DNA of 24,000 nucleotides, taken from assembly GCF_045862395.1 (NCBI RefSeq), contig NZ_AP023087.1, positions 1,487,404-1,511,403 of the forward strand. Direction: 5' to 3'. Positions within the stretch are counted from its first letter, which is position 1. Each line of letters opens with the position of its first letter. The notes below the pieces were generated by a model. It was not told the origin of the DNA, did no database searches, and worked only from the letters and a program-made list of their open reading frames with translations. The stretch is from Marinicellulosiphila megalodicopiae. Its GTDB lineage: Bacteria; Pseudomonadota; Gammaproteobacteria; Pseudomonadales; Natronospirillaceae. The translations under genes and the position numbers were made by a program. Shown in pieces: positions 13,379 through 17,937 of this stretch.

Positions 13379-14470
13379 ATGACTATGAATTCACCATTTA
13401 TCTCACCTGGAATGCCACCACTAGATCAAAAAGGTAAGCAAACTTCATTTTTTGAATTTTGGCCAATGTGGCTGATGTACCTGCCTGTTTTTTTTATGTG
13501 GATTATTTGGGCCATTCGATATCGTTCATTAACTTTACCTTTAATTGCCAATCCAAAAATTAATTTATCTGGAATGGTCGGTACTCCAAAAAGCGACATA
13601 TTTAATATGGCGGGTGAATTTGCAAAATCGTCCATTCTGGATTGGTTTGTGGTTCATCAATCTAAGTATTCATATCAACAGATCGTTACTCAAATGCAAC
13701 ATAAAGGTTTTTCATTTCCGATTGTGGTTAAGCCAGATATTGGCTGTCGTGGAACCGGAGTGAAATTGATTAAAACCGAGCAAGAATTAAAAACAGTTTT
13801 AACTACTTACAGCGAAGATTCACCGATAATGGTACAGAAATTGTCGGATTTTGAAGCAGAAGTAGGTTTGTTTTATGTGAAATTGCCTGGGCAAAAAACG
13901 GGCACCATTCAAAGTATGGCATTTAAATATAGCCCTTATGTGGTGGGTGATGGCACTTCAACGCTTGGAGAGTTATTGCAAAAAGATGATCGTGCAAAAG
14001 ATCTTTTGGATATTTATCAAAACAGTTGCGATTTTGATTTGGTGTTAAAACCTGAAGAACCGCATAAACTGGTTTTTTCTGCTAGTCATTGTCGCGGTGC
14101 AATTTTCAGAGACGGTATTGAATTTAATACTCCAGAGCTTGAAGCGCAACTAGATAAAATTATGTCGGATATTCCCGATTTCAATTACGGTCGATTAGAT
14201 GTGAAATTTAAAGATTTAATGTCTTTGCAAAAAGGTCAGACATTGCAAATTGTCGAAATTAATGGTGCAGCGTCAGAGTCGCTTCATATTTGGGATCGTA
14301 ATGCGAATTTAAATCAAGCATTTTGTGCGTTGTTATGGCAATACAAAACATTATTTTTATTGGGTAAACAGGCTCGCGAAAAAGGAGTTAAGACGCCAGG
14401 AATAAAAGCGTTAATCAAAGCATGGTTACACGAACGAAGTTTAGTTAAATTTTATCCAGTTAACGATTGA
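13379..14470 (+). CDS. Membrane-anchored ATP-grasp domain protein (carboxylate-amine ligase-like)
   Basis: The 363-aa product has an N-terminal TM helix (FFEFWPMWLMYLPVFFMWIIWAI). It then has an ATP-grasp-like layout: FPIVVKPDIGCRGTGVKLI (the K-containing beta strand plus Gly-rich loop), IMVQKL, and a C-terminal RLDVKF....LQIVEINGAASE block that resembles the Mg/ATP-binding E-x-N motif. Confidence 0.7.
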   Translation: MTMNSPFISPGMPPLDQKGKQTSFFEFWPMWLMYLPVFFMWIIWAIRYRSLTLPLIANPKINLSGMVGTPKSDIFNMAGEFAKSSILDWFVVHQSKYSYQQIVTQMQHKGFSFPIVVKPDIGCRGTGVKLIKTEQELKTVLTTYSEDSPIMVQKLSDFEAEVGLFYVKLPGQKTGTIQSMAFKYSPYVVGDGTSTLGELLQKDDRAKDLLDIYQNSCDFDLVLKPEEPHKLVFSASHCRGAIFRDGIEFNTPELEAQLDKIMSDIPDFNYGRLDVKFKDLMSLQKGQTLQIVEINGAASESLHIWDRNANLNQAFCALLWQYKTLFLLGKQAREKGVKTPGIKALIKAWLHERSLVKFYPVND

Positions 14471-14477
14471 GAATGAT

Positions 14478-16229
14478 ATGTCAGTAAATAACCCATTTAG
14501 AATTCCGTTAAAAAATAATTTAGTGGCGAAATCATTAGAGATGATTTTAGGTTTAAAGCCGTTGGCGCAGCATTATGATCTTCGTCCACAAAACCTAGAT
14601 GCAACTGCATTTTTAGCATATACCCAAGACGCATTAGGTTTAGAAAGTTGCAGAATTAATTTTGAAGAAAATCTGAAAAAAATTCCAAAAGACGGACCGT
14701 TAATTATTGTGGCAAATCATCCTTTAGGTGGATTAGAAGGCGTAGTATTAAGTCAATTATTACTTAAATATCGTCCAGATTTAAAAGTATTAACGAATAA
14801 ATTACTGACACACATTCCTGAATTTAAAGAATTATTCATAGGTGTAAATGTACTTGCCAAGGACGCAAAGGCTGAAAATTTTAAAGGCATTAAAACGTCA
14901 AGTAAGCACTTATCTAACGGTGGTGCGTTGTTGATTTTTCCTGCGGGAAAAGTCTCGTCGTTAAATATTAAAAAATTGCGCATTGAAGATATAGCATGGA
15001 ATCGACAAGTGGGACTTTGGGCAAAAAAATACGAATCTAATGTATTGCCAATTCGAATTAATGGCTTAAATAGTTTTAAATTTTATCTATCGGGTTTAAT
15101 TCATCCACGTTTACGAACCTTATTATTGCCTCGTGAATTTGTAAATAAACGCGGTAAACACATTGATATCTCAATTGGTAATATCATTGAACCAAAAGAA
15201 ATTAAAGGTTTAAGTGATGCCCAAGCCCTCACAAATTACTTTCGGTTGTGTACAGATTTATTAAAAGACAATACTTCAAAAAAAGGCATCATCCCTGAAG
15301 GGCAAAATCATTTGCCTATCTCCAAACCACCAGAACGAGATATATTAGACTGTGCAGTGAATCAATTATCAGAATATAGGTTAATAAAGTTTAAACATTA
15401 TTCAGTTTATTGTGTGCCAGGTAGTGAAATTGGTGTCATCAGAAATGAATTGGCATTTGCAAGAGAGCTCACATTTCGCACCGCCAATGAAGGAACAGGG
15501 CAGCTTGAAGATTGGGATGAATATAATGAATATTATCTTCAGTTGTTTGTTTATGACCATACCAACAAAAAATTAGCAGGTGCTTACCGTATGGCTGAAA
15601 CATTTAAAGTGTTAGACAGTCATGGTGTGAAAGGGTTGTACAGCAATAAAATGTATAACTACGATGAAAAATTATTACGTGACATTGGCCCTGCTTTAGA
15701 AGTTGGTCGCTCGTTTGTTCACCCAGATTACCAAAAAAGAACCGCTGTTTTAGATTTATTATGGAAAGGCATAGGTACCTATGTTGCTCTAAATAATCAG
15801 ATTACTACGGTATTTGGTGGTGTAAGTATCTCTCAAGAATATTCAGAACAAGCCCGTGTGTTTATTGCAGATTCTATGCTGTCGAGTTTTAAATTCGATC
15901 GAGTAATTTTTAATGTAGCGCCTAAAATTCCTTTGAAAGTAAAAAGTAAATTATGGAGCTCTGAGCACCTTTATAGTATTGGTAATGTGCCGTTATTTAA
16001 TAAATTATTAGGTCAGTTTGAGCAGGGAAAAGTGATTCCTATTTTGATCCGACATTATTTAGCGCTCAACGGAAAGTTTGTTTGCTTTTCAGTGAATCAA
16101 GATCTAAATGAATCATTAGATGGTTTGATTTTGGTTGATTTTGCGACCATGCCGGCTAAGTATTTAAAACGATATTTAGGTGAGCAAGGCTCAATAGAAT
16201 ATAAAAGAAAGTGGAGTATTAATGATTGA
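14478..16229 (+). CDS. Two-domain lipid acyltransferase, OlsF-like (N-terminal PlsC/lysophospholipid-acyltransferase-like domain plus C-terminal OlsB-like GNAT N-acyltransferase domain)
   Basis: The 583-aa product starts 7 nt after the ATP-grasp stop. The N-terminal half has PLIIVANHPLGGLEG and LLIFPAGKVS, which are acyltransferase motif I-like and III-like blocks. The C-terminal half has RELTFRTANEGTG..EDWDEYNEYYLQLFVYDHTNKKLAGAYRM and VGRSFVHPDYQ, typical of OlsB/Acetyltransf_5-type acyl-ACP-dependent N-acyltransferases. The domain order and size match the bifunctional OlsF described for ornithine-lipid synthesis. Confidence 0.75.
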   Translation: MSVNNPFRIPLKNNLVAKSLEMILGLKPLAQHYDLRPQNLDATAFLAYTQDALGLESCRINFEENLKKIPKDGPLIIVANHPLGGLEGVVLSQLLLKYRPDLKVLTNKLLTHIPEFKELFIGVNVLAKDAKAENFKGIKTSSKHLSNGGALLIFPAGKVSSLNIKKLRIEDIAWNRQVGLWAKKYESNVLPIRINGLNSFKFYLSGLIHPRLRTLLLPREFVNKRGKHIDISIGNIIEPKEIKGLSDAQALTNYFRLCTDLLKDNTSKKGIIPEGQNHLPISKPPERDILDCAVNQLSEYRLIKFKHYSVYCVPGSEIGVIRNELAFARELTFRTANEGTGQLEDWDEYNEYYLQLFVYDHTNKKLAGAYRMAETFKVLDSHGVKGLYSNKMYNYDEKLLRDIGPALEVGRSFVHPDYQKRTAVLDLLWKGIGTYVALNNQITTVFGGVSISQEYSEQARVFIADSMLSSFKFDRVIFNVAPKIPLKVKSKLWSSEHLYSIGNVPLFNKLLGQFEQGKVIPILIRHYLALNGKFVCFSVNQDLNESLDGLILVDFATMPAKYLKRYLGEQGSIEYKRKWSIND

Positions 16230-16731: not shown

Positions 16732-17468
16732 TGTGTACAGTTAGCGCATTTTACGATCAAAGTGGCTTAGTGGTTACAATGAATCGGGACGAGCAGCGCA
16801 CAAGACATGAAGCTTTGCCTATAGTTAGTCAAACTATGTTATATCCGGTAGATGAAAAACAAGGTGGCACCTGGATGGGTGGCAATCACAATCAAGTCAT
16901 TATGTGTTTGTTAAATTTATATGAGCACGAGTATTTTGTTGGAGAACAATCAAGAGGTAACATCATCCCTGAATTATTGGAATTAAAATCCTTTGATGCT
17001 ATTACTGTTTTTTTGCAATCTCAGTTTGACCCATATTTATATTCTGCTTTTTCACTGTTAACATTTTATAAAAACCAAGTATTTAAAAGCAAATGGGATG
17101 GCATAAGTTTTACTCATGAATTAAGTAACTTAGATCCTTGGTATTTTTTTACATCTTCAGGGTTAGATTCACTGAATGTACAGTCAGGTCGGCATATACT
17201 GTTTGATCAATACAAAACAAAAGGGGCGGACTTTAAACAAGCGAGCAAACCCACATCAATACCCAGTATTCACTTAACCTATGTTAAAGGCAATGAAACC
17301 CAAAGCTGTTTTGTGCAACGTTTAAAAGTGCATACCAAAAGTATTTGTCAGTACTATGCTGATGAAAAGACTATTAAGTTTCATTATTACCCTGAAAATT
17401 TAATAGTTGAATATATTAATAATCCAACCATCAATCCAAGTTTATCAAAGGTGTTTTTCTTGGAATAA
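16731..17468 (+). CDS. NRDE / TANGO2-family protein
   Basis: The 245-aa ORF starts in TAATG, a 1-nt overlap with the DinB-like stop. It begins MCTVSAFY...VVTMNRDE, which gives both the conserved Met-Cys N-terminus and the literal NRDE motif that name the family. Human TANGO2 begins MCIIFF...ANRDE. Confidence 0.8.
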   Translation: MCTVSAFYDQSGLVVTMNRDEQRTRHEALPIVSQTMLYPVDEKQGGTWMGGNHNQVIMCLLNLYEHEYFVGEQSRGNIIPELLELKSFDAITVFLQSQFDPYLYSAFSLLTFYKNQVFKSKWDGISFTHELSNLDPWYFFTSSGLDSLNVQSGRHILFDQYKTKGADFKQASKPTSIPSIHLTYVKGNETQSCFVQRLKVHTKSICQYYADEKTIKFHYYPENLIVEYINNPTINPSLSKVFFLE

Positions 17469-17496
17469 CATTCTGCTAAATCAAAAGAGAGTCATT

Positions 17497-17937
17497 ATGA
17501 ATAAATTTTTAGTCGCAATTTCTGTATTAGTTGTCAGTGTATTTAGTCATGCAAAACAAGATGTATATACGTCTTTTGCTAGTGATGAAGCCATTAAAGG
17601 TTACGATCCTGTAGCATATTTCACTCAAAATGAGGCCGTACAAGGCAGTGATGATTTTAGTTTTAATTGGATGGACGTAACCTGGTTATTTGCTTCCAAA
17701 CAAAACCTTGATTTGTTTAAATCGAATCCTGAAAAGTACAGTCCTCAGTTTGGTGGGTATTGTGCTTTTGCTATGGCAAGTGGTAAAAAAGTAAAAATTA
17801 ACCCTAAAAACTTCTCAATCATAGATGATAAATTGTATTTAAATTACAACTCTAAAGTGCAACAAAATTGGTTGAAAGACAGCGAAGCGTTAATTAAAAG
17901 AGCAAATGATGTTTGGGTGGACTTTGCTGAATACTGA
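17497..17937 (+). CDS. Periplasmic YHS-domain protein
   Basis: I place the start at the ATG at 17497 (MNKFLVAISVLVVSVFSHA-KQ signal peptide, AGAGAG RBS). The ORF-track start at 17407 would overlap the NRDE gene by 62 nt. The blocks GYDPVAYF, W.F.S..N...F..NPEKYSPQFGGYCAFAM are the typical YHS-domain pattern. Confidence 0.8.
   Translation: MNKFLVAISVLVVSVFSHAKQDVYTSFASDEAIKGYDPVAYFTQNEAVQGSDDFSFNWMDVTWLFASKQNLDLFKSNPEKYSPQFGGYCAFAMASGKKVKINPKNFSIIDDKLYLNYNSKVQQNWLKDSEALIKRANDVWVDFAEY

What the first reader, a model, noticed from the sequence alone, without database searches (positions are those of the whole stretch)
13379..17937. Compact five-gene operon: ATP-grasp ligase, OlsF-like acyltransferase, DinB-like, NRDE/TANGO2, periplasmic YHS protein. 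Candidate non-canonical aminolipid biosynthesis and modification system
Seen in sequence: five same-strand ORFs have junctions of +7 nt, -8 nt (ATGATTGA), -1 nt (TAATG) and +28 nt. They are flanked by a 135-nt promoter-like gap upstream and an ORF-free AT-rich tract downstream. This is the signature of one co-translated unit. Established knowledge: the 583-aa protein has the domain order of bifunctional OlsF, with a PlsC-like O-acyltransferase followed by an OlsB-like N-acyltransferase. OlsF alone is sufficient to make ornithine lipid. Inference: three further enzymes and one exported metal-binding-type protein are welded to it. That suggests the product is not a plain ornithine lipid. An ATP-grasp carboxylate-amine ligase is the right chemistry to add a second amino acid to the free carboxylate of an N-acyl amino acid, or to build the head group beforehand. 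DinB-fold proteins are commonly metal-dependent transferases or hydrolases. NRDE proteins have a putative N-terminal Cys nucleophile. To my knowledge this five-gene combination has no described pathway.
Basis: partly seen in the sequence, partly recalled or inferred. Interest (0 to 1): 0.75.

Follow-up and report, generated by a model that had tools for sequence, protein, structure and literature searches.

The report
Ornithine-lipid synthase operon with ATP-grasp partners
A five-gene operon in a deep-sea bacterium couples an ornithine-lipid-type membrane-lipid synthase to an ATP-dependent ligase and three helper proteins, and because the same gene set recurs in shuffled order in many marine bacteria and in Vibrio cholerae, where its role is still unknown, it probably makes or remodels an undescribed amino-acid lipid.

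Summary
Five tightly packed same-strand genes at 13379-17937 encode an ATP-grasp ligase, an OlsF-like bifunctional acyltransferase, a DinB-family protein, an NRDE/TANGO2 protein and an exported YHS protein. The window comes from Marinicellulosiphila megalodicopiae, whose major polar lipids include unidentified aminolipids.

Comparative genomics shows a real functional unit with a layered structure. The core is the ligase followed by the OlsF-like gene, adjacent in 76 of 80 species-level genomes and overlapping in 46 of 76. DinB (22), YHS (12) and NRDE (8) are optional add-ons.

The same families recur in other orders: DinB-NRDE-ligase-OlsF in Porticoccus, and VTT-ligase-DinB-NRDE-YHS-DoxX-OlsF in Vibrio and Photobacterium. 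In Variovorax the ligase sits next to a stand-alone OlsB-like N-acyltransferase. Across the wider family the ligase is usually fused to a DedA/VTT membrane domain.

The Vibrio cholerae counterpart is VCA0646-0650. VCA0646 is a proven ornithine-lipid synthase. I show that VCA0647 is the YHS protein, which together with VCA0646 causes cell death when overexpressed.

The product is untested. My best reading (about 0.45) is an ornithine-lipid synthase plus a membrane-bound ligase that amidates the lipid's carboxylate. I classify it as a new variant of a known kind.

The parts
13244..13378 (+). 135-nt intergenic region upstream of the operon (presumed promoter region)
   Evidence: Gap between the MscS-like gene (ends 13243) and the first gene. 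The consensus scan found no sigma-70-like + strand site here. No Pho-box-like site is present, and no inverted repeat.
13379..14470 (+). Membrane-associated ATP-grasp carboxylate-amine ligase ('GRASP'; named 'D-alanine--D-alanine ligase' by NCBI, which it is not)
   Evidence: Pfam RimK scores 24 bits against a cut-off of 21. The AF2 model has pLDDT 83.5. The best Foldseek and PDB matches are the cyanophycin synthetase G domain, GshF and Ddl. Invariant residues include K118, E293 and N295, plus the N-terminal FEFWPxW segment. Residues 27-46 partition strongly into membrane (Kyte-Doolittle 1.59; Wimley-White -13 kcal/mol). The protein is 100% identical to a Marinicellulosiphila megalodicopiae protein; NCBI starts it 2 codons later.
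14478..16229 (+). OlsF-like bifunctional aminolipid synthase (N-terminal O-acyltransferase plus C-terminal OlsB-like N-acyltransferase)
   Evidence: Acyltransf_2 covers residues 64-262 and Acetyltransf_5 covers 329-429. NCBIfam OlsF gives 352 bits over model positions 47-569 of 570, below the cut-off of 620. The proven synthase VCA0646 also falls below it at 433 bits. The window protein is 37% identical to VCA0646 over its full length.
16222..16731 (+). DinB-family protein (putative metal-dependent enzyme)
   Evidence: Pfam DinB scores 23.2 bits against 23. H41, H44, H129, H132 and H133, plus several Arg and Glu residues, are invariant in 17 operon-linked homologues. A homologue is present in 22 of 80 loci. 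One family representative is a DinB-GRASP fusion (P0397).
16731..17468 (+). NRDE/TANGO2-family protein
   Evidence: Pfam TANGO2 scores 45 bits. The PDB profile match to TANGO2 (8sv7) has E 2.4e-9. Met-Cys-Thr at the N terminus is kept in 8 of 8 full-length homologues, and the RDE residues of the NRDE motif are invariant, with N replaced by S in one homologue (L060).
17497..17937 (+). Exported YHS-domain protein with one invariant cysteine
   Evidence: NCBIfam YHS_seleno_dom scores 163 bits against 70. A hydrophobic N-terminal signal peptide ends at SHA|KQ. The GGYCA cysteine is invariant in 13 homologues. The protein is 42% identical to the V. cholerae gene directly upstream of VCA0646.
17938..18165 (+). 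3' untranslated region with a possible weak terminator (long stem closed by GCAGCUUAU/AUUAGGCUGC, then UUUUUUAUU near 18150)
   Evidence: RNA fold z-score is -2.5. The consensus terminator scan did not find it. The call is tentative.

Best explanation
The operon is a membrane-lipid module built around an ornithine-lipid-type synthase.

Shown:
- The 583-aa protein has the full OlsF architecture and is a homologue of V. cholerae VCA0646, which makes ornithine lipid on its own.
- The host makes unidentified aminolipids.
- The ATP-grasp gene is translationally coupled to the synthase gene across dozens of species.
- The ATP-grasp family is a membrane-associated ligase family, mostly found fused to a DedA/VTT membrane domain.

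Inferred:
1. The synthase N-acylates ornithine (or a close amino acid) with a 3-hydroxyacyl chain and then O-acylates it.
2. The ligase sits at the inner face of the membrane. It phosphorylates a lipid carboxylate, most simply the free alpha-carboxylate of the (lyso-)aminolipid, and joins an amine to it (an amino acid, taurine or a polyamine). This changes the head-group charge.
3. DinB (metal-dependent) and NRDE (acyl-chain-binding or Cys-nucleophile fold) are optional editing, turnover or acyl-handling helpers.
4. The exported YHS protein acts on or with the lipid on the periplasmic side. Where present, the VTT/DedA partner moves the lipid across the bilayer.
For: Synteny:
- OlsF lies directly downstream of GRASP in 76 of 80 species-level genomes. 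Two of the four misses are contig ends.
- The two genes overlap in 46 of 76 loci and lie within 30 nt in 61.
- The same five families occur in permuted orders in Vibrio, Photobacterium, Porticoccus and strain SCSIO 12696, and in the same order plus a sixth gene in V. ulleungensis.
- In a beta-proteobacterium, GRASP is followed 9 nt later by a stand-alone OlsB-like N-acyltransferase.

Fusions. Of the 150 best family representatives, 83 are VTT-GRASP, 2 are alpha/beta-hydrolase-VTT-GRASP and 1 is DinB-GRASP (Azospirillum example).

The ligase itself:
- It has the ATP-grasp fold with catalytic residues conserved.
- It is nearest to the cyanophycin synthetase G domain, which activates a C-terminal backbone carboxylate.
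- The usual N-terminal substrate domain is replaced by an invariant aromatic membrane-partitioning segment.

Literature:
- VCA0646 makes ornithine lipid alone (PMC12186959).
- vca0646 and vca0647 are jointly required for overexpression-induced cell death (PMC11573629). I show that vca0647 is the YHS gene.
- TANGO2 binds acyl-CoA through its NRDE motif (PMC11867700).
- ATP-dependent taurine transfer to ornithine lipid exists, but its gene is unknown (PMC12971839).
- The host has unidentified aminolipids (PMC11966569).

Specificity. More distant or paralogous OlsF genes stand alone, so the link is specific to this gene and not generic to OlsF.
Against: - No lipid chemistry was measured.
- In V. 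cholerae only unmodified ornithine lipid has been reported under conditions that induce VCA0646, and vca0648 and vca0649 were dispensable for the death phenotype.
- 53 of 80 loci carry only the ligase-synthase pair, so DinB, NRDE and YHS cannot be obligatory steps.
- Salinivibrio has VTT-GRASP-DinB-NRDE with no adjacent OlsF, and no OlsF on that replicon.
- Paracoccus and Azospirillum have GRASP without an adjacent aminolipid synthase, so the ligase's substrate may not be an ornithine lipid.
- The identities of VCA0648-0651 are inferred from Vibrio aquimaris synteny and an annotation table, not read from V. cholerae DNA.
Confidence: 0.45

Rival explanations
1. The accessory genes form an envelope-stress or redox module that is co-regulated with ornithine-lipid synthesis but does not modify the lipid. 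The ligase, DinB and NRDE would make or recycle a small peptide- or thiol-like compound. The YHS protein would use its single Cys (Sec in some relatives) for periplasmic redox or metal chemistry.
For: - The ATP-grasp fold also resembles glutathione synthetase/GshF.
- DinB-family enzymes include thiol transferases (established knowledge).
- The family name is YHS (seleno)protein, and it has one invariant Cys.
- A DoxX/MauE-like membrane protein recurs nearby.
- In a V. cholerae RNA-seq table, VCA0646-0651 change together with cpxP, copG, copA, msrB, thioredoxin 2 and glutaredoxin (PMC7600106).
- Salinivibrio keeps GRASP-DinB-NRDE without OlsF.
Against: - The ligase and OlsF genes overlap in 46 of 76 loci and occur as a bare pair in 53 loci, without DinB, NRDE or YHS.
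- The ligase pairs again with a stand-alone OlsB-like acyltransferase in Variovorax.
- The ligase has a membrane segment and is mostly fused to a DedA/VTT membrane domain. That fits a lipid substrate better than a soluble one.
Confidence: 0.2
2. The ligase acts before acylation. It builds a dipeptide or amino-acid amide that the OlsF-like enzyme of this lineage then N-acylates, giving a peptide-headed lipid directly.
For: - Dipeptide and tripeptide aminolipids exist (Ser-Gly, Orn-Ser-Gly), and their head-group enzymes are not named in the 2026 review.
- The window OlsF-like protein is well below the OlsF equivalog cut-off (352 against 620 bits).
- The ATP-grasp family includes many L-amino-acid ligases (established knowledge).
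Against: - VCA0646 alone makes ordinary ornithine lipid in E. coli and also scores below the cut-off, so the low score says nothing about specificity.
- A membrane-embedded N-terminal segment and VTT fusions are unexpected for an enzyme joining two soluble amino acids.
Confidence: 0.15
3. The ligase, with VTT and an alpha/beta hydrolase, is a general membrane-lipid homeostasis system acting on another carboxyl-bearing lipid (for example phosphatidylserine, a free fatty acid or a lipid-linked intermediate). Ornithine-lipid synthesis is only one process it accompanies in marine gammaproteobacteria.
For: - Most family members are VTT fusions with no aminolipid synthase attached.
- Paracoccus has GRASP, an alpha/beta hydrolase and VTT.
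- Triple fusions of hydrolase, VTT and GRASP exist.
Against: The ligase is tightly and repeatedly coupled to OlsF or OlsB-like genes in two proteobacterial classes. Paracoccus and Azospirillum may well make ornithine lipid from genes elsewhere; this was not tested here.
Confidence: 0.15
4. The five genes are adjacent by chance and are functionally unrelated.
For: None beyond the absence of direct expression data for this organism.
Against: The same families are conserved across orders in at least four different gene orders, and fusion proteins exist.
Confidence: 0.02

Closest known systems
OlsF bifunctional ornithine-lipid synthase (Serratia proteamaculans Spro_2569; V. cholerae VC0489 and VCA0646)
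   Same: It has the same two-domain architecture (Acyltransf_2 then Acetyltransf_5) and aligns end to end with the OlsF model. It is 37% identical to VCA0646, which makes ornithine lipid when expressed alone.
   Different: It scores below the NCBIfam equivalog cut-off, as does VCA0646. Unlike the Enterobacter OlsF homologue, the Bacteroidota OlsF genes and the second Photobacterium paralogue, which stand alone, it is translationally coupled to an ATP-grasp ligase and followed by DinB, NRDE and YHS.
V. cholerae vca0646-0649 operon ('four genes of unknown function', HapR-activated; PNAS 2024) plus VCA0650-0651
   Same: It holds the same gene families. I showed directly that VCA0647 is the YHS protein and that VCA0646 begins at an ATGA overlap with it. 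In Vibrio aquimaris and Photobacterium the order is VTT-GRASP-DinB-NRDE-YHS-DoxX-OlsF. An annotation table calls VCA0650 'D-alanine-D-alanine ligase'.
   Different: The gene order is permuted: OlsF is last in Vibrio and second here. The window lacks the VTT and DoxX-like genes. The identities of VCA0648-0651 are inferred, not read.
Cerilipin formation (ATP-dependent taurine transfer to the carboxyl group of ornithine lipid in Gluconobacter cerinus)
   Same: This is the chemistry proposed here: ATP-dependent amidation of the ornithine-lipid carboxylate. The enzyme's gene is unknown (PMC12971839).
   Different: No link to the acetic-acid-bacterium enzyme was shown. The Komagataeibacter homologues (29% identity) lie in unrelated plasmid contexts. 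The amine substrate here is unknown.
NAGGN pathway: Ngg (GNAT N-acetyltransferase plus ATP-grasp dipeptide ligase) and AsnO (Cys-Ntn amidotransferase), which is osmoregulated (my own knowledge)
   Same: The logic is the same: a GNAT-type N-acyltransferase, an ATP-grasp ligase that extends the N-acyl amino acid at its carboxylate, and an N-terminal-Cys enzyme. VCA0646 is also salinity-regulated. The Variovorax GRASP gives a weak hit to the Ngg model (21 bits).
   Different: The acyl group there is acetyl and the product is soluble. Sequence similarity is marginal. NRDE is not a class-II amidotransferase.
Cyanophycin synthetase G domain
   Same: It is the best structural and profile match, and it shares the YVVGDGxSTL motif. 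It activates a C-terminal backbone carboxylate and adds an amino acid.
   Different: The score is 22.8 bits against a cut-off of 850. There is no M or N domain, and the N terminus is a membrane segment.
MprF (aminoacyl-phosphatidylglycerol synthase fused to a flippase)
   Same: Most GRASP family members are fused to a DedA/VTT membrane domain, the same 'lipid-modifying enzyme plus translocator' layout.
   Different: There is no homology. MprF uses aminoacyl-tRNA, not ATP. The window protein itself carries only a short membrane segment, not a VTT domain.

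Membership tests
OlsF (bifunctional ornithine lipid synthase, NCBIfam NF052615) | N-terminal Acyltransf_2-type O-acyltransferase domain | tested here: met
   PF19576 scores 52 bits against a cut-off of 27, covering residues 64-262. The NHPLGG and FPAG motifs are visible in the sequence.
OlsF (bifunctional ornithine lipid synthase, NCBIfam NF052615) | C-terminal OlsB-like GNAT N-acyltransferase domain | tested here: met
   PF13444 scores 60.8 bits against 22.4, covering residues 329-429.
OlsF (bifunctional ornithine lipid synthase, NCBIfam NF052615) | Score at or above the curated equivalog cut-off (620 bits) | tested here: not met
   The score is 352 bits over model positions 47-569 of 570. 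The experimentally proven synthase VCA0646 also fails, at 433 bits, so this criterion is too strict for this branch.
OlsF (bifunctional ornithine lipid synthase, NCBIfam NF052615) | Forms ornithine lipid when expressed alone | not testable with these tools
   This is known only for the homologue VCA0646, which is 37% identical.
ATP-grasp carboxylate-amine ligases | ATP-grasp fold with conserved Lys and Mg-binding Glu/Asn | tested here: met
   The AF2 model has pLDDT 83.5. Foldseek gives probability 1.0 to CphA, GshF and Ddl. K118, E293 and N295 are invariant. Pfam RimK scores 24 bits against 21.
D-alanine--D-alanine ligase (the NCBI product name) | Score at the Ddl model cut-offs and presence of the Ddl N-terminal domain | tested here: not met
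   Scores are 17.5-19.7 bits against cut-offs of 245-489. Only the central region matches. The N terminus is a membrane segment.
Cyanophycin synthetase | Full-length match including the M and N domains | tested here: not met
   The score is 22.8 bits against 850, and only a 98-residue stretch (residues 106-203) aligns to the G-domain part of the model.
DinB family (PF05163) | Pfam gathering score and conserved metal-binding histidines | tested here: met
   The score of 23.2 bits against 23 is borderline. H41, H44, H129, H132 and H133 are invariant in 17 homologues. Relatives are annotated DinB or DinB_2. The PDB profile match is only marginal.
NRDE/TANGO2 (PF05742) | Pfam score, NRDE motif and N-terminal Cys | tested here: met
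   The score is 45 bits against 22.6, though only the N-terminal half matches the model. The TANGO2 PDB match has E 2.4e-9. The RDE residues are invariant, with N replaced by S in one of nine homologues, and MCT is kept in 8 of 8 full-length homologues.
YHS-domain (seleno)protein (NF041384) | Score at or above the cut-off, with the conserved GGYC(U) motif | tested here: met
   The score is 162.7 bits against 70. C89 is invariant. The signal peptide was read from the sequence.
Known anti-phage defence systems (PADLOC) | Any protein matching a defence model | tested here: not met
   None of the five proteins matched.

The most novel reading that the evidence does not exclude
The ATP-grasp protein is the first identified aminolipid head-group ligase. 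It would be a membrane-bound enzyme that amidates the carboxylate of ornithine lipid (or its lyso form) with a second amine, yielding a so-far-undescribed cationic or peptide-headed lipid class. This class would be made by many marine gammaproteobacteria and by Vibrio cholerae. There its overproduction, together with the periplasmic YHS partner, would explain the quorum-sensing-controlled, T6SS-independent cell death. The wider VTT-fused family would then be an ATP-driven analogue of MprF.
Probability: 0.3. Interest if true: 0.8.

Novelty: new variant of a known kind. Interest (0 to 1): 0.62.

Why it matters
Ornithine and related amino-acid lipids replace phospholipids under stress and affect resistance to polymyxin. 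Yet the enzymes that extend their head groups have never been identified. [quoted passage not shown]

This work offers a ligase that is translationally coupled to the synthase in dozens of species. The ligase belongs to a family of more than 1,200 representative clusters (E up to 1e-30) and is mostly fused to a DedA-type membrane domain. It is therefore a concrete, cheap-to-test candidate.

The work also connects two V. cholerae papers that do not cite a common function. One describes VCA0646 as an ornithine-lipid synthase. The other describes vca0646-0649 as an unknown cell-death operon. Identifying VCA0647 as the exported YHS protein, and the likely neighbours as DinB, NRDE and the ligase, links the two.

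Tried and rejected
- **VCA0647 as the ATP-grasp gene.** I guessed this from a published primer that translated to a motif-like peptide. Fetching the DNA showed the guess was wrong: VCA0647 is the YHS protein.
- **Finding the V. cholerae ligase by protein search.** A third protein search seeded with the V. ulleungensis ligase did not bring up V. cholerae. The identities of VCA0648-0651 therefore rest on Vibrio aquimaris and Photobacterium synteny and an annotation table.
- **Structure of the YHS protein.** The single-sequence model was useless (pLDDT 48), so no fold search was run on it.
- **AFDB50 fold search.** The library was unavailable.
- **Pho box.** Only one chance-level match was found, inside the MscS gene and not upstream of the operon.
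- **Promoter and terminator scans.** They gave nothing above the shuffle expectation in the relevant places.
- **Other negative searches.** There were no Rfam families or tRNAs in the window. No PADLOC defence models matched. No remnant of the small 4-TM gene (C30) that ends the cluster in other genera was found in the AT-rich tract.
- **Komagataeibacter homologues.** I examined them for a cerilipin link, but their plasmid context is uninformative.
- **DinB and YHS in the PDB.** DinB gave only marginal PDB matches (best E 0.14; DinB-like entries at E 0.38-0.78) and YHS only one chance-level match (E 0.37).

Full report
**1. Observation**

| Gene | Coordinates | Length |
|---|---|---|
| ATP-grasp ligase (GRASP) | 13379-14470 | 363 aa |
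| OlsF-like | 14478-16229 | 583 aa |
| DinB | 16222-16731 | 169 aa |
| NRDE/TANGO2 | 16731-17468 | 245 aa |
| YHS | 17497-17937 | 146 aa from the ATG |

- I read the junctions directly. They are +7 nt, -8 nt (ATGATTGA), -1 nt (TAATG) and +28 nt.
- The upstream gap is 135 nt.
- The downstream 1.77 kb has 24.7% GC, against 35% for the operon.
- The window is from Marinicellulosiphila megalodicopiae, with 100% protein identity to that organism. It is a deep-sea member of the Oceanospirillales.
- Its major polar lipids are PG, PE, unidentified phospholipids and unidentified aminolipids (PMC11966569).

**2. What the proteins are**

*OlsF-like protein.*
- Pfam and NCBIfam reproduce the domain calls. 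The protein has Acyltransf_2 (residues 64-262) and Acetyltransf_5 (329-429).
- It aligns to almost the whole NCBIfam OlsF model, scoring 352 bits against a cut-off of 620.
- That shortfall is not informative. V. cholerae VCA0646 is an experimentally proven ornithine-lipid synthase, and it scores only 433 bits.

*ATP-grasp ligase.*
- NCBI names it 'D-alanine--D-alanine ligase', but it fails every Ddl model by more than 200 bits.
- Its AF2 model (pLDDT 83.5) is a clear ATP-grasp fold. The nearest structures are the cyanophycin synthetase G domain, GshF and Ddl.
- K118, E293 and N295 are invariant.
- In place of the usual N-terminal substrate domain it has an invariant aromatic segment (FEFWPxW...). 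This segment partitions strongly into membrane.

*DinB.* It keeps five invariant histidines.

*NRDE.* It keeps Met-Cys-Thr at the N terminus and the NRDE motif (N replaced by S in one homologue), and it matches TANGO2 structures. Human TANGO2 binds acyl-CoA through that motif (PMC11867700).

*YHS.* It has a signal peptide and one invariant Cys in GGYCA.

**3. Is it a unit?**

*Search anchored on the ligase.* A genome scan anchored on the ligase found 226 species-level genomes, and 80 were kept. Counts among the 80 loci, by tblastn and operon-specific HMMs:

| Family | Loci |
|---|---|
| OlsF directly downstream | 76 (two of the four misses are contig ends) |
| DinB | 22 |
| YHS | 12 |
| Small 4-TM protein (C30) | 9 |
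| NRDE | 8 |
| Alpha/beta hydrolase | 3 |

- The ligase and OlsF genes overlap in 46 of 76 loci and lie within 30 nt in 61.
- In 53 loci, mostly Pseudohongiella-like, the pair stands alone. It is typically followed by the housekeeping genes ribF-ileS-fkpB-ispH.
- The structure is therefore layered: a ligase-OlsF core, then DinB, then NRDE, YHS and the small membrane protein.

*Searches that did not start from the ligase.* They gave the same picture, with permuted gene orders:

| Organism (locus) | Gene order |
|---|---|
| V. ulleungensis (L081) | GRASP-OlsF-DinB-NRDE-YHS-4TM |
| Porticoccus (L092) and strain SCSIO 12696 (L089) | DinB-NRDE-GRASP-OlsF |
| A metagenomic contig (L093) | DinB-NRDE-OlsF |
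| Vibrio aquimaris (L084) and Photobacterium (L095) | VTT-GRASP-DinB-NRDE-YHS-DoxX-like-OlsF |
| Salinivibrio (L083) | VTT-GRASP-DinB-NRDE, no OlsF |
| Variovorax, a beta-proteobacterium (L094) | GRASP followed 9 nt later by a stand-alone OlsB-like N-acyltransferase (175 bits to the OlsB model) |

*Controls.* More distant OlsF genes (Enterobacter, Aureibacter) and the second OlsF paralogue of Photobacterium stand alone. The association is therefore specific to this gene and not a general property of OlsF.

**4. The wider ligase family**

- An exhaustive profile search found 1,264 representative clusters at E up to 1e-30.
- Of the best 150, 83 are VTT(DedA)-GRASP fusions, 2 are alpha/beta-hydrolase-VTT-GRASP fusions, 1 is a DinB-GRASP fusion and 64 are stand-alone ligases.
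- Azospirillum (590 aa) is an annotated example of the VTT fusion.
- Paracoccus has the three as neighbouring genes.
- These fusions tie the ligase to the membrane, to a DedA-type putative lipid translocator, to a hydrolase and to DinB.

**5. Link to Vibrio cholerae**

*What the literature says.*
- PLoS One 2025 (PMC12186959) shows that VCA0646 makes ornithine lipid alone in E. coli. It is induced at low salinity and contributes to polymyxin tolerance. It is the last gene of a putative vca0649-0646 operon.
- PNAS 2024 (PMC11573629) calls vca0646-0649 'four genes of unknown function'. They are activated by HapR, and vca0646 plus vca0647 are jointly required for overexpression-induced, T6SS-independent cell death.
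- Neither paper names the partner proteins, and the 2026 review does not either.

*What I found.*
- Using a published primer sequence, I fetched V. cholerae-type DNA (L082); two further published primer sequences are also found in it.
- The gene directly upstream of VCA0646 encodes a 148-aa exported YHS protein, 42% identical to the window's.
- The likely true start of VCA0646 is an ATG that overlaps the YHS stop codon.
- An RNA-seq table (PMC7600106) lists VCA0650-1 as 'D-alanine-D-alanine ligase, hypothetical protein'. It changes together with VCA0646-0649.

*Inference.* Combined with the Vibrio aquimaris order, the V. cholerae locus is very probably VTT(0651)-GRASP(0650)-DinB(0649)-NRDE(0648)-YHS(0647)-OlsF(0646). 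The identities of VCA0648-0651 are inferred, because I could not read that DNA.

**6. Mechanism**

*Shown:*
- an OlsF-type synthase;
- a membrane-associated ATP-grasp ligase genetically welded to it;
- optional DinB, NRDE and YHS partners;
- a host that makes aminolipids.

*Inferred (confidence about 0.45):*
1. The synthase makes an ornithine-type lipid.
2. The ligase activates a lipid carboxylate, most simply the alpha-carboxylate of the (lyso-)aminolipid, and adds an amine. Precedents are ATP-dependent taurine transfer to ornithine lipid, whose gene is unknown, and peptide-headed aminolipids whose extension enzymes are not named.
3. The NAGGN pathway is a soluble analogue (my own knowledge). 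It combines a GNAT acyltransferase, an ATP-grasp ligase and an N-terminal-Cys enzyme, and it is osmoregulated.
4. DinB and NRDE would edit, turn over or handle acyl groups.
5. YHS would act in the periplasm, which is consistent with its synergy with OlsF in V. cholerae.

*Evidence against:*
- Only plain ornithine lipid has been reported in V. cholerae.
- vca0648 and vca0649 are dispensable for the death phenotype.
- The ligase occurs without an adjacent aminolipid synthase in Salinivibrio, Paracoccus and Azospirillum.

**7. Rival readings**

- A redox or envelope-stress module merely co-regulated with ornithine-lipid synthesis: 0.2.
- The ligase building the head group before acylation: 0.15.
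- A general VTT-linked lipid system for which ornithine lipid is not the substrate: 0.15.
- Chance adjacency: 0.02.

**8. Verdict**

The OlsF part is a member of a known kind. The coupled ligase, DinB, NRDE and YHS module has no described function. I classify the whole as a new variant of a known kind, with interest 0.62. It is directly testable by co-expression lipidomics and by V. cholerae genetics.

Noticed in passing
window 19252-19354 (inside the AT-rich tract 17938-19709): There are two abutting perfect hexanucleotide microsatellites, (ATGTCC)x5 and (CCAAAT)x12.5. They sit in a 1.77-kb tract of 24.7% GC whose only sizeable ORF (18804-19202, 132 aa, Lys/Glu-rich) matches no family. This could be a phase-variable or horizontally acquired spacer upstream of the 1065-aa gene.
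   Followed up: partly
L082 1-517 (V. cholerae-type contig OARB01000004.1): The published 'PVCA0646' reporter fragment covers 428 bp upstream plus 72 bp of the annotated start. Its forward primer lies at L082 15-35, so the fragment spans the whole vca0647 (YHS) gene and only about 57 nt upstream of it. The low-salt promoter therefore lies before or inside vca0647. The annotated GTG start of VCA0646 overlaps the YHS gene by 76 nt. An ATG at position 514 gives the 581-aa protein with an ATGA overlap.
   Followed up: partly
L094 4110-7896 (Variovorax sp. PDNC026): A different small cluster contains the same ligase family: an iron-containing redox enzyme (Haem_oxygenas_2), a methyltransferase, GRASP and an OlsB-like N-acyltransferase. 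It looks like a separate N-acyl-amino-acid-type biosynthetic cluster.
   Followed up: partly
P0433, P0455, P0397 (family representatives): There are triple-fusion proteins of alpha/beta hydrolase, VTT and GRASP (about 850 aa), and one DinB-GRASP fusion (543 aa). I did not check whether the single DinB fusion is a gene-calling artefact.
   Followed up: partly
L089 1-3233 and L092 1-3239: In Porticoccus and strain SCSIO 12696, the DinB-NRDE-GRASP-OlsF cluster lies divergently next to a DoxX-like gene and a haem-uptake cluster (hemP, a TonB-dependent receptor, HemS/ChuX). This is notable because bacterial TANGO2 homologues have also been proposed as haem-trafficking proteins.
   Followed up: no
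window 10945-13243: A phosphate-selective porin O/P homologue and an MscS-type mechanosensitive channel lie directly upstream on the same strand. The adjacency is not conserved in other genomes. Still, an osmotic-downshock channel next to the homologue of a low-salt-induced lipid synthase is a curious coincidence.
   Followed up: partly
window 19710-22907: This gene encodes a 1065-aa protein with an N-terminal signal-peptide/lipobox-like start (LTGC) (weak EexN-lipoprotein match below cut-off). It has two cytochrome-c-type domains separated by long (ETETQT)n low-complexity linkers, and a C-terminal region with weak, below-cut-off PSD2 (DUF1585) and DUF1800 matches.
   Followed up: no
window 2805-8288: A hemC-hemD-hemX-hemY cluster is followed by a Fic/DOC-family protein with a DUF4172 N-terminal domain. 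These are ordinary housekeeping genes plus a possible toxin or AMPylator.
   Followed up: no
L031 and L035: These are the two loci where the ligase is not followed by OlsF and the contig does not end. In L031 the ligase runs straight into ribF-ileS. In L035 it faces an alpha/beta hydrolase. They may represent gene loss or an alternative partner.
   Followed up: no
L058/L088 region: Komagataeibacter plasmids (H39-H44): Distant ligase homologues (29% identity) sit on conjugative plasmids of acetic acid bacteria, among methylase, ABC-transporter and arsenic-resistance genes. The relatives of these bacteria make the taurine-ornithine lipid cerilipin, but no lipid-gene context was seen.
   Followed up: partly
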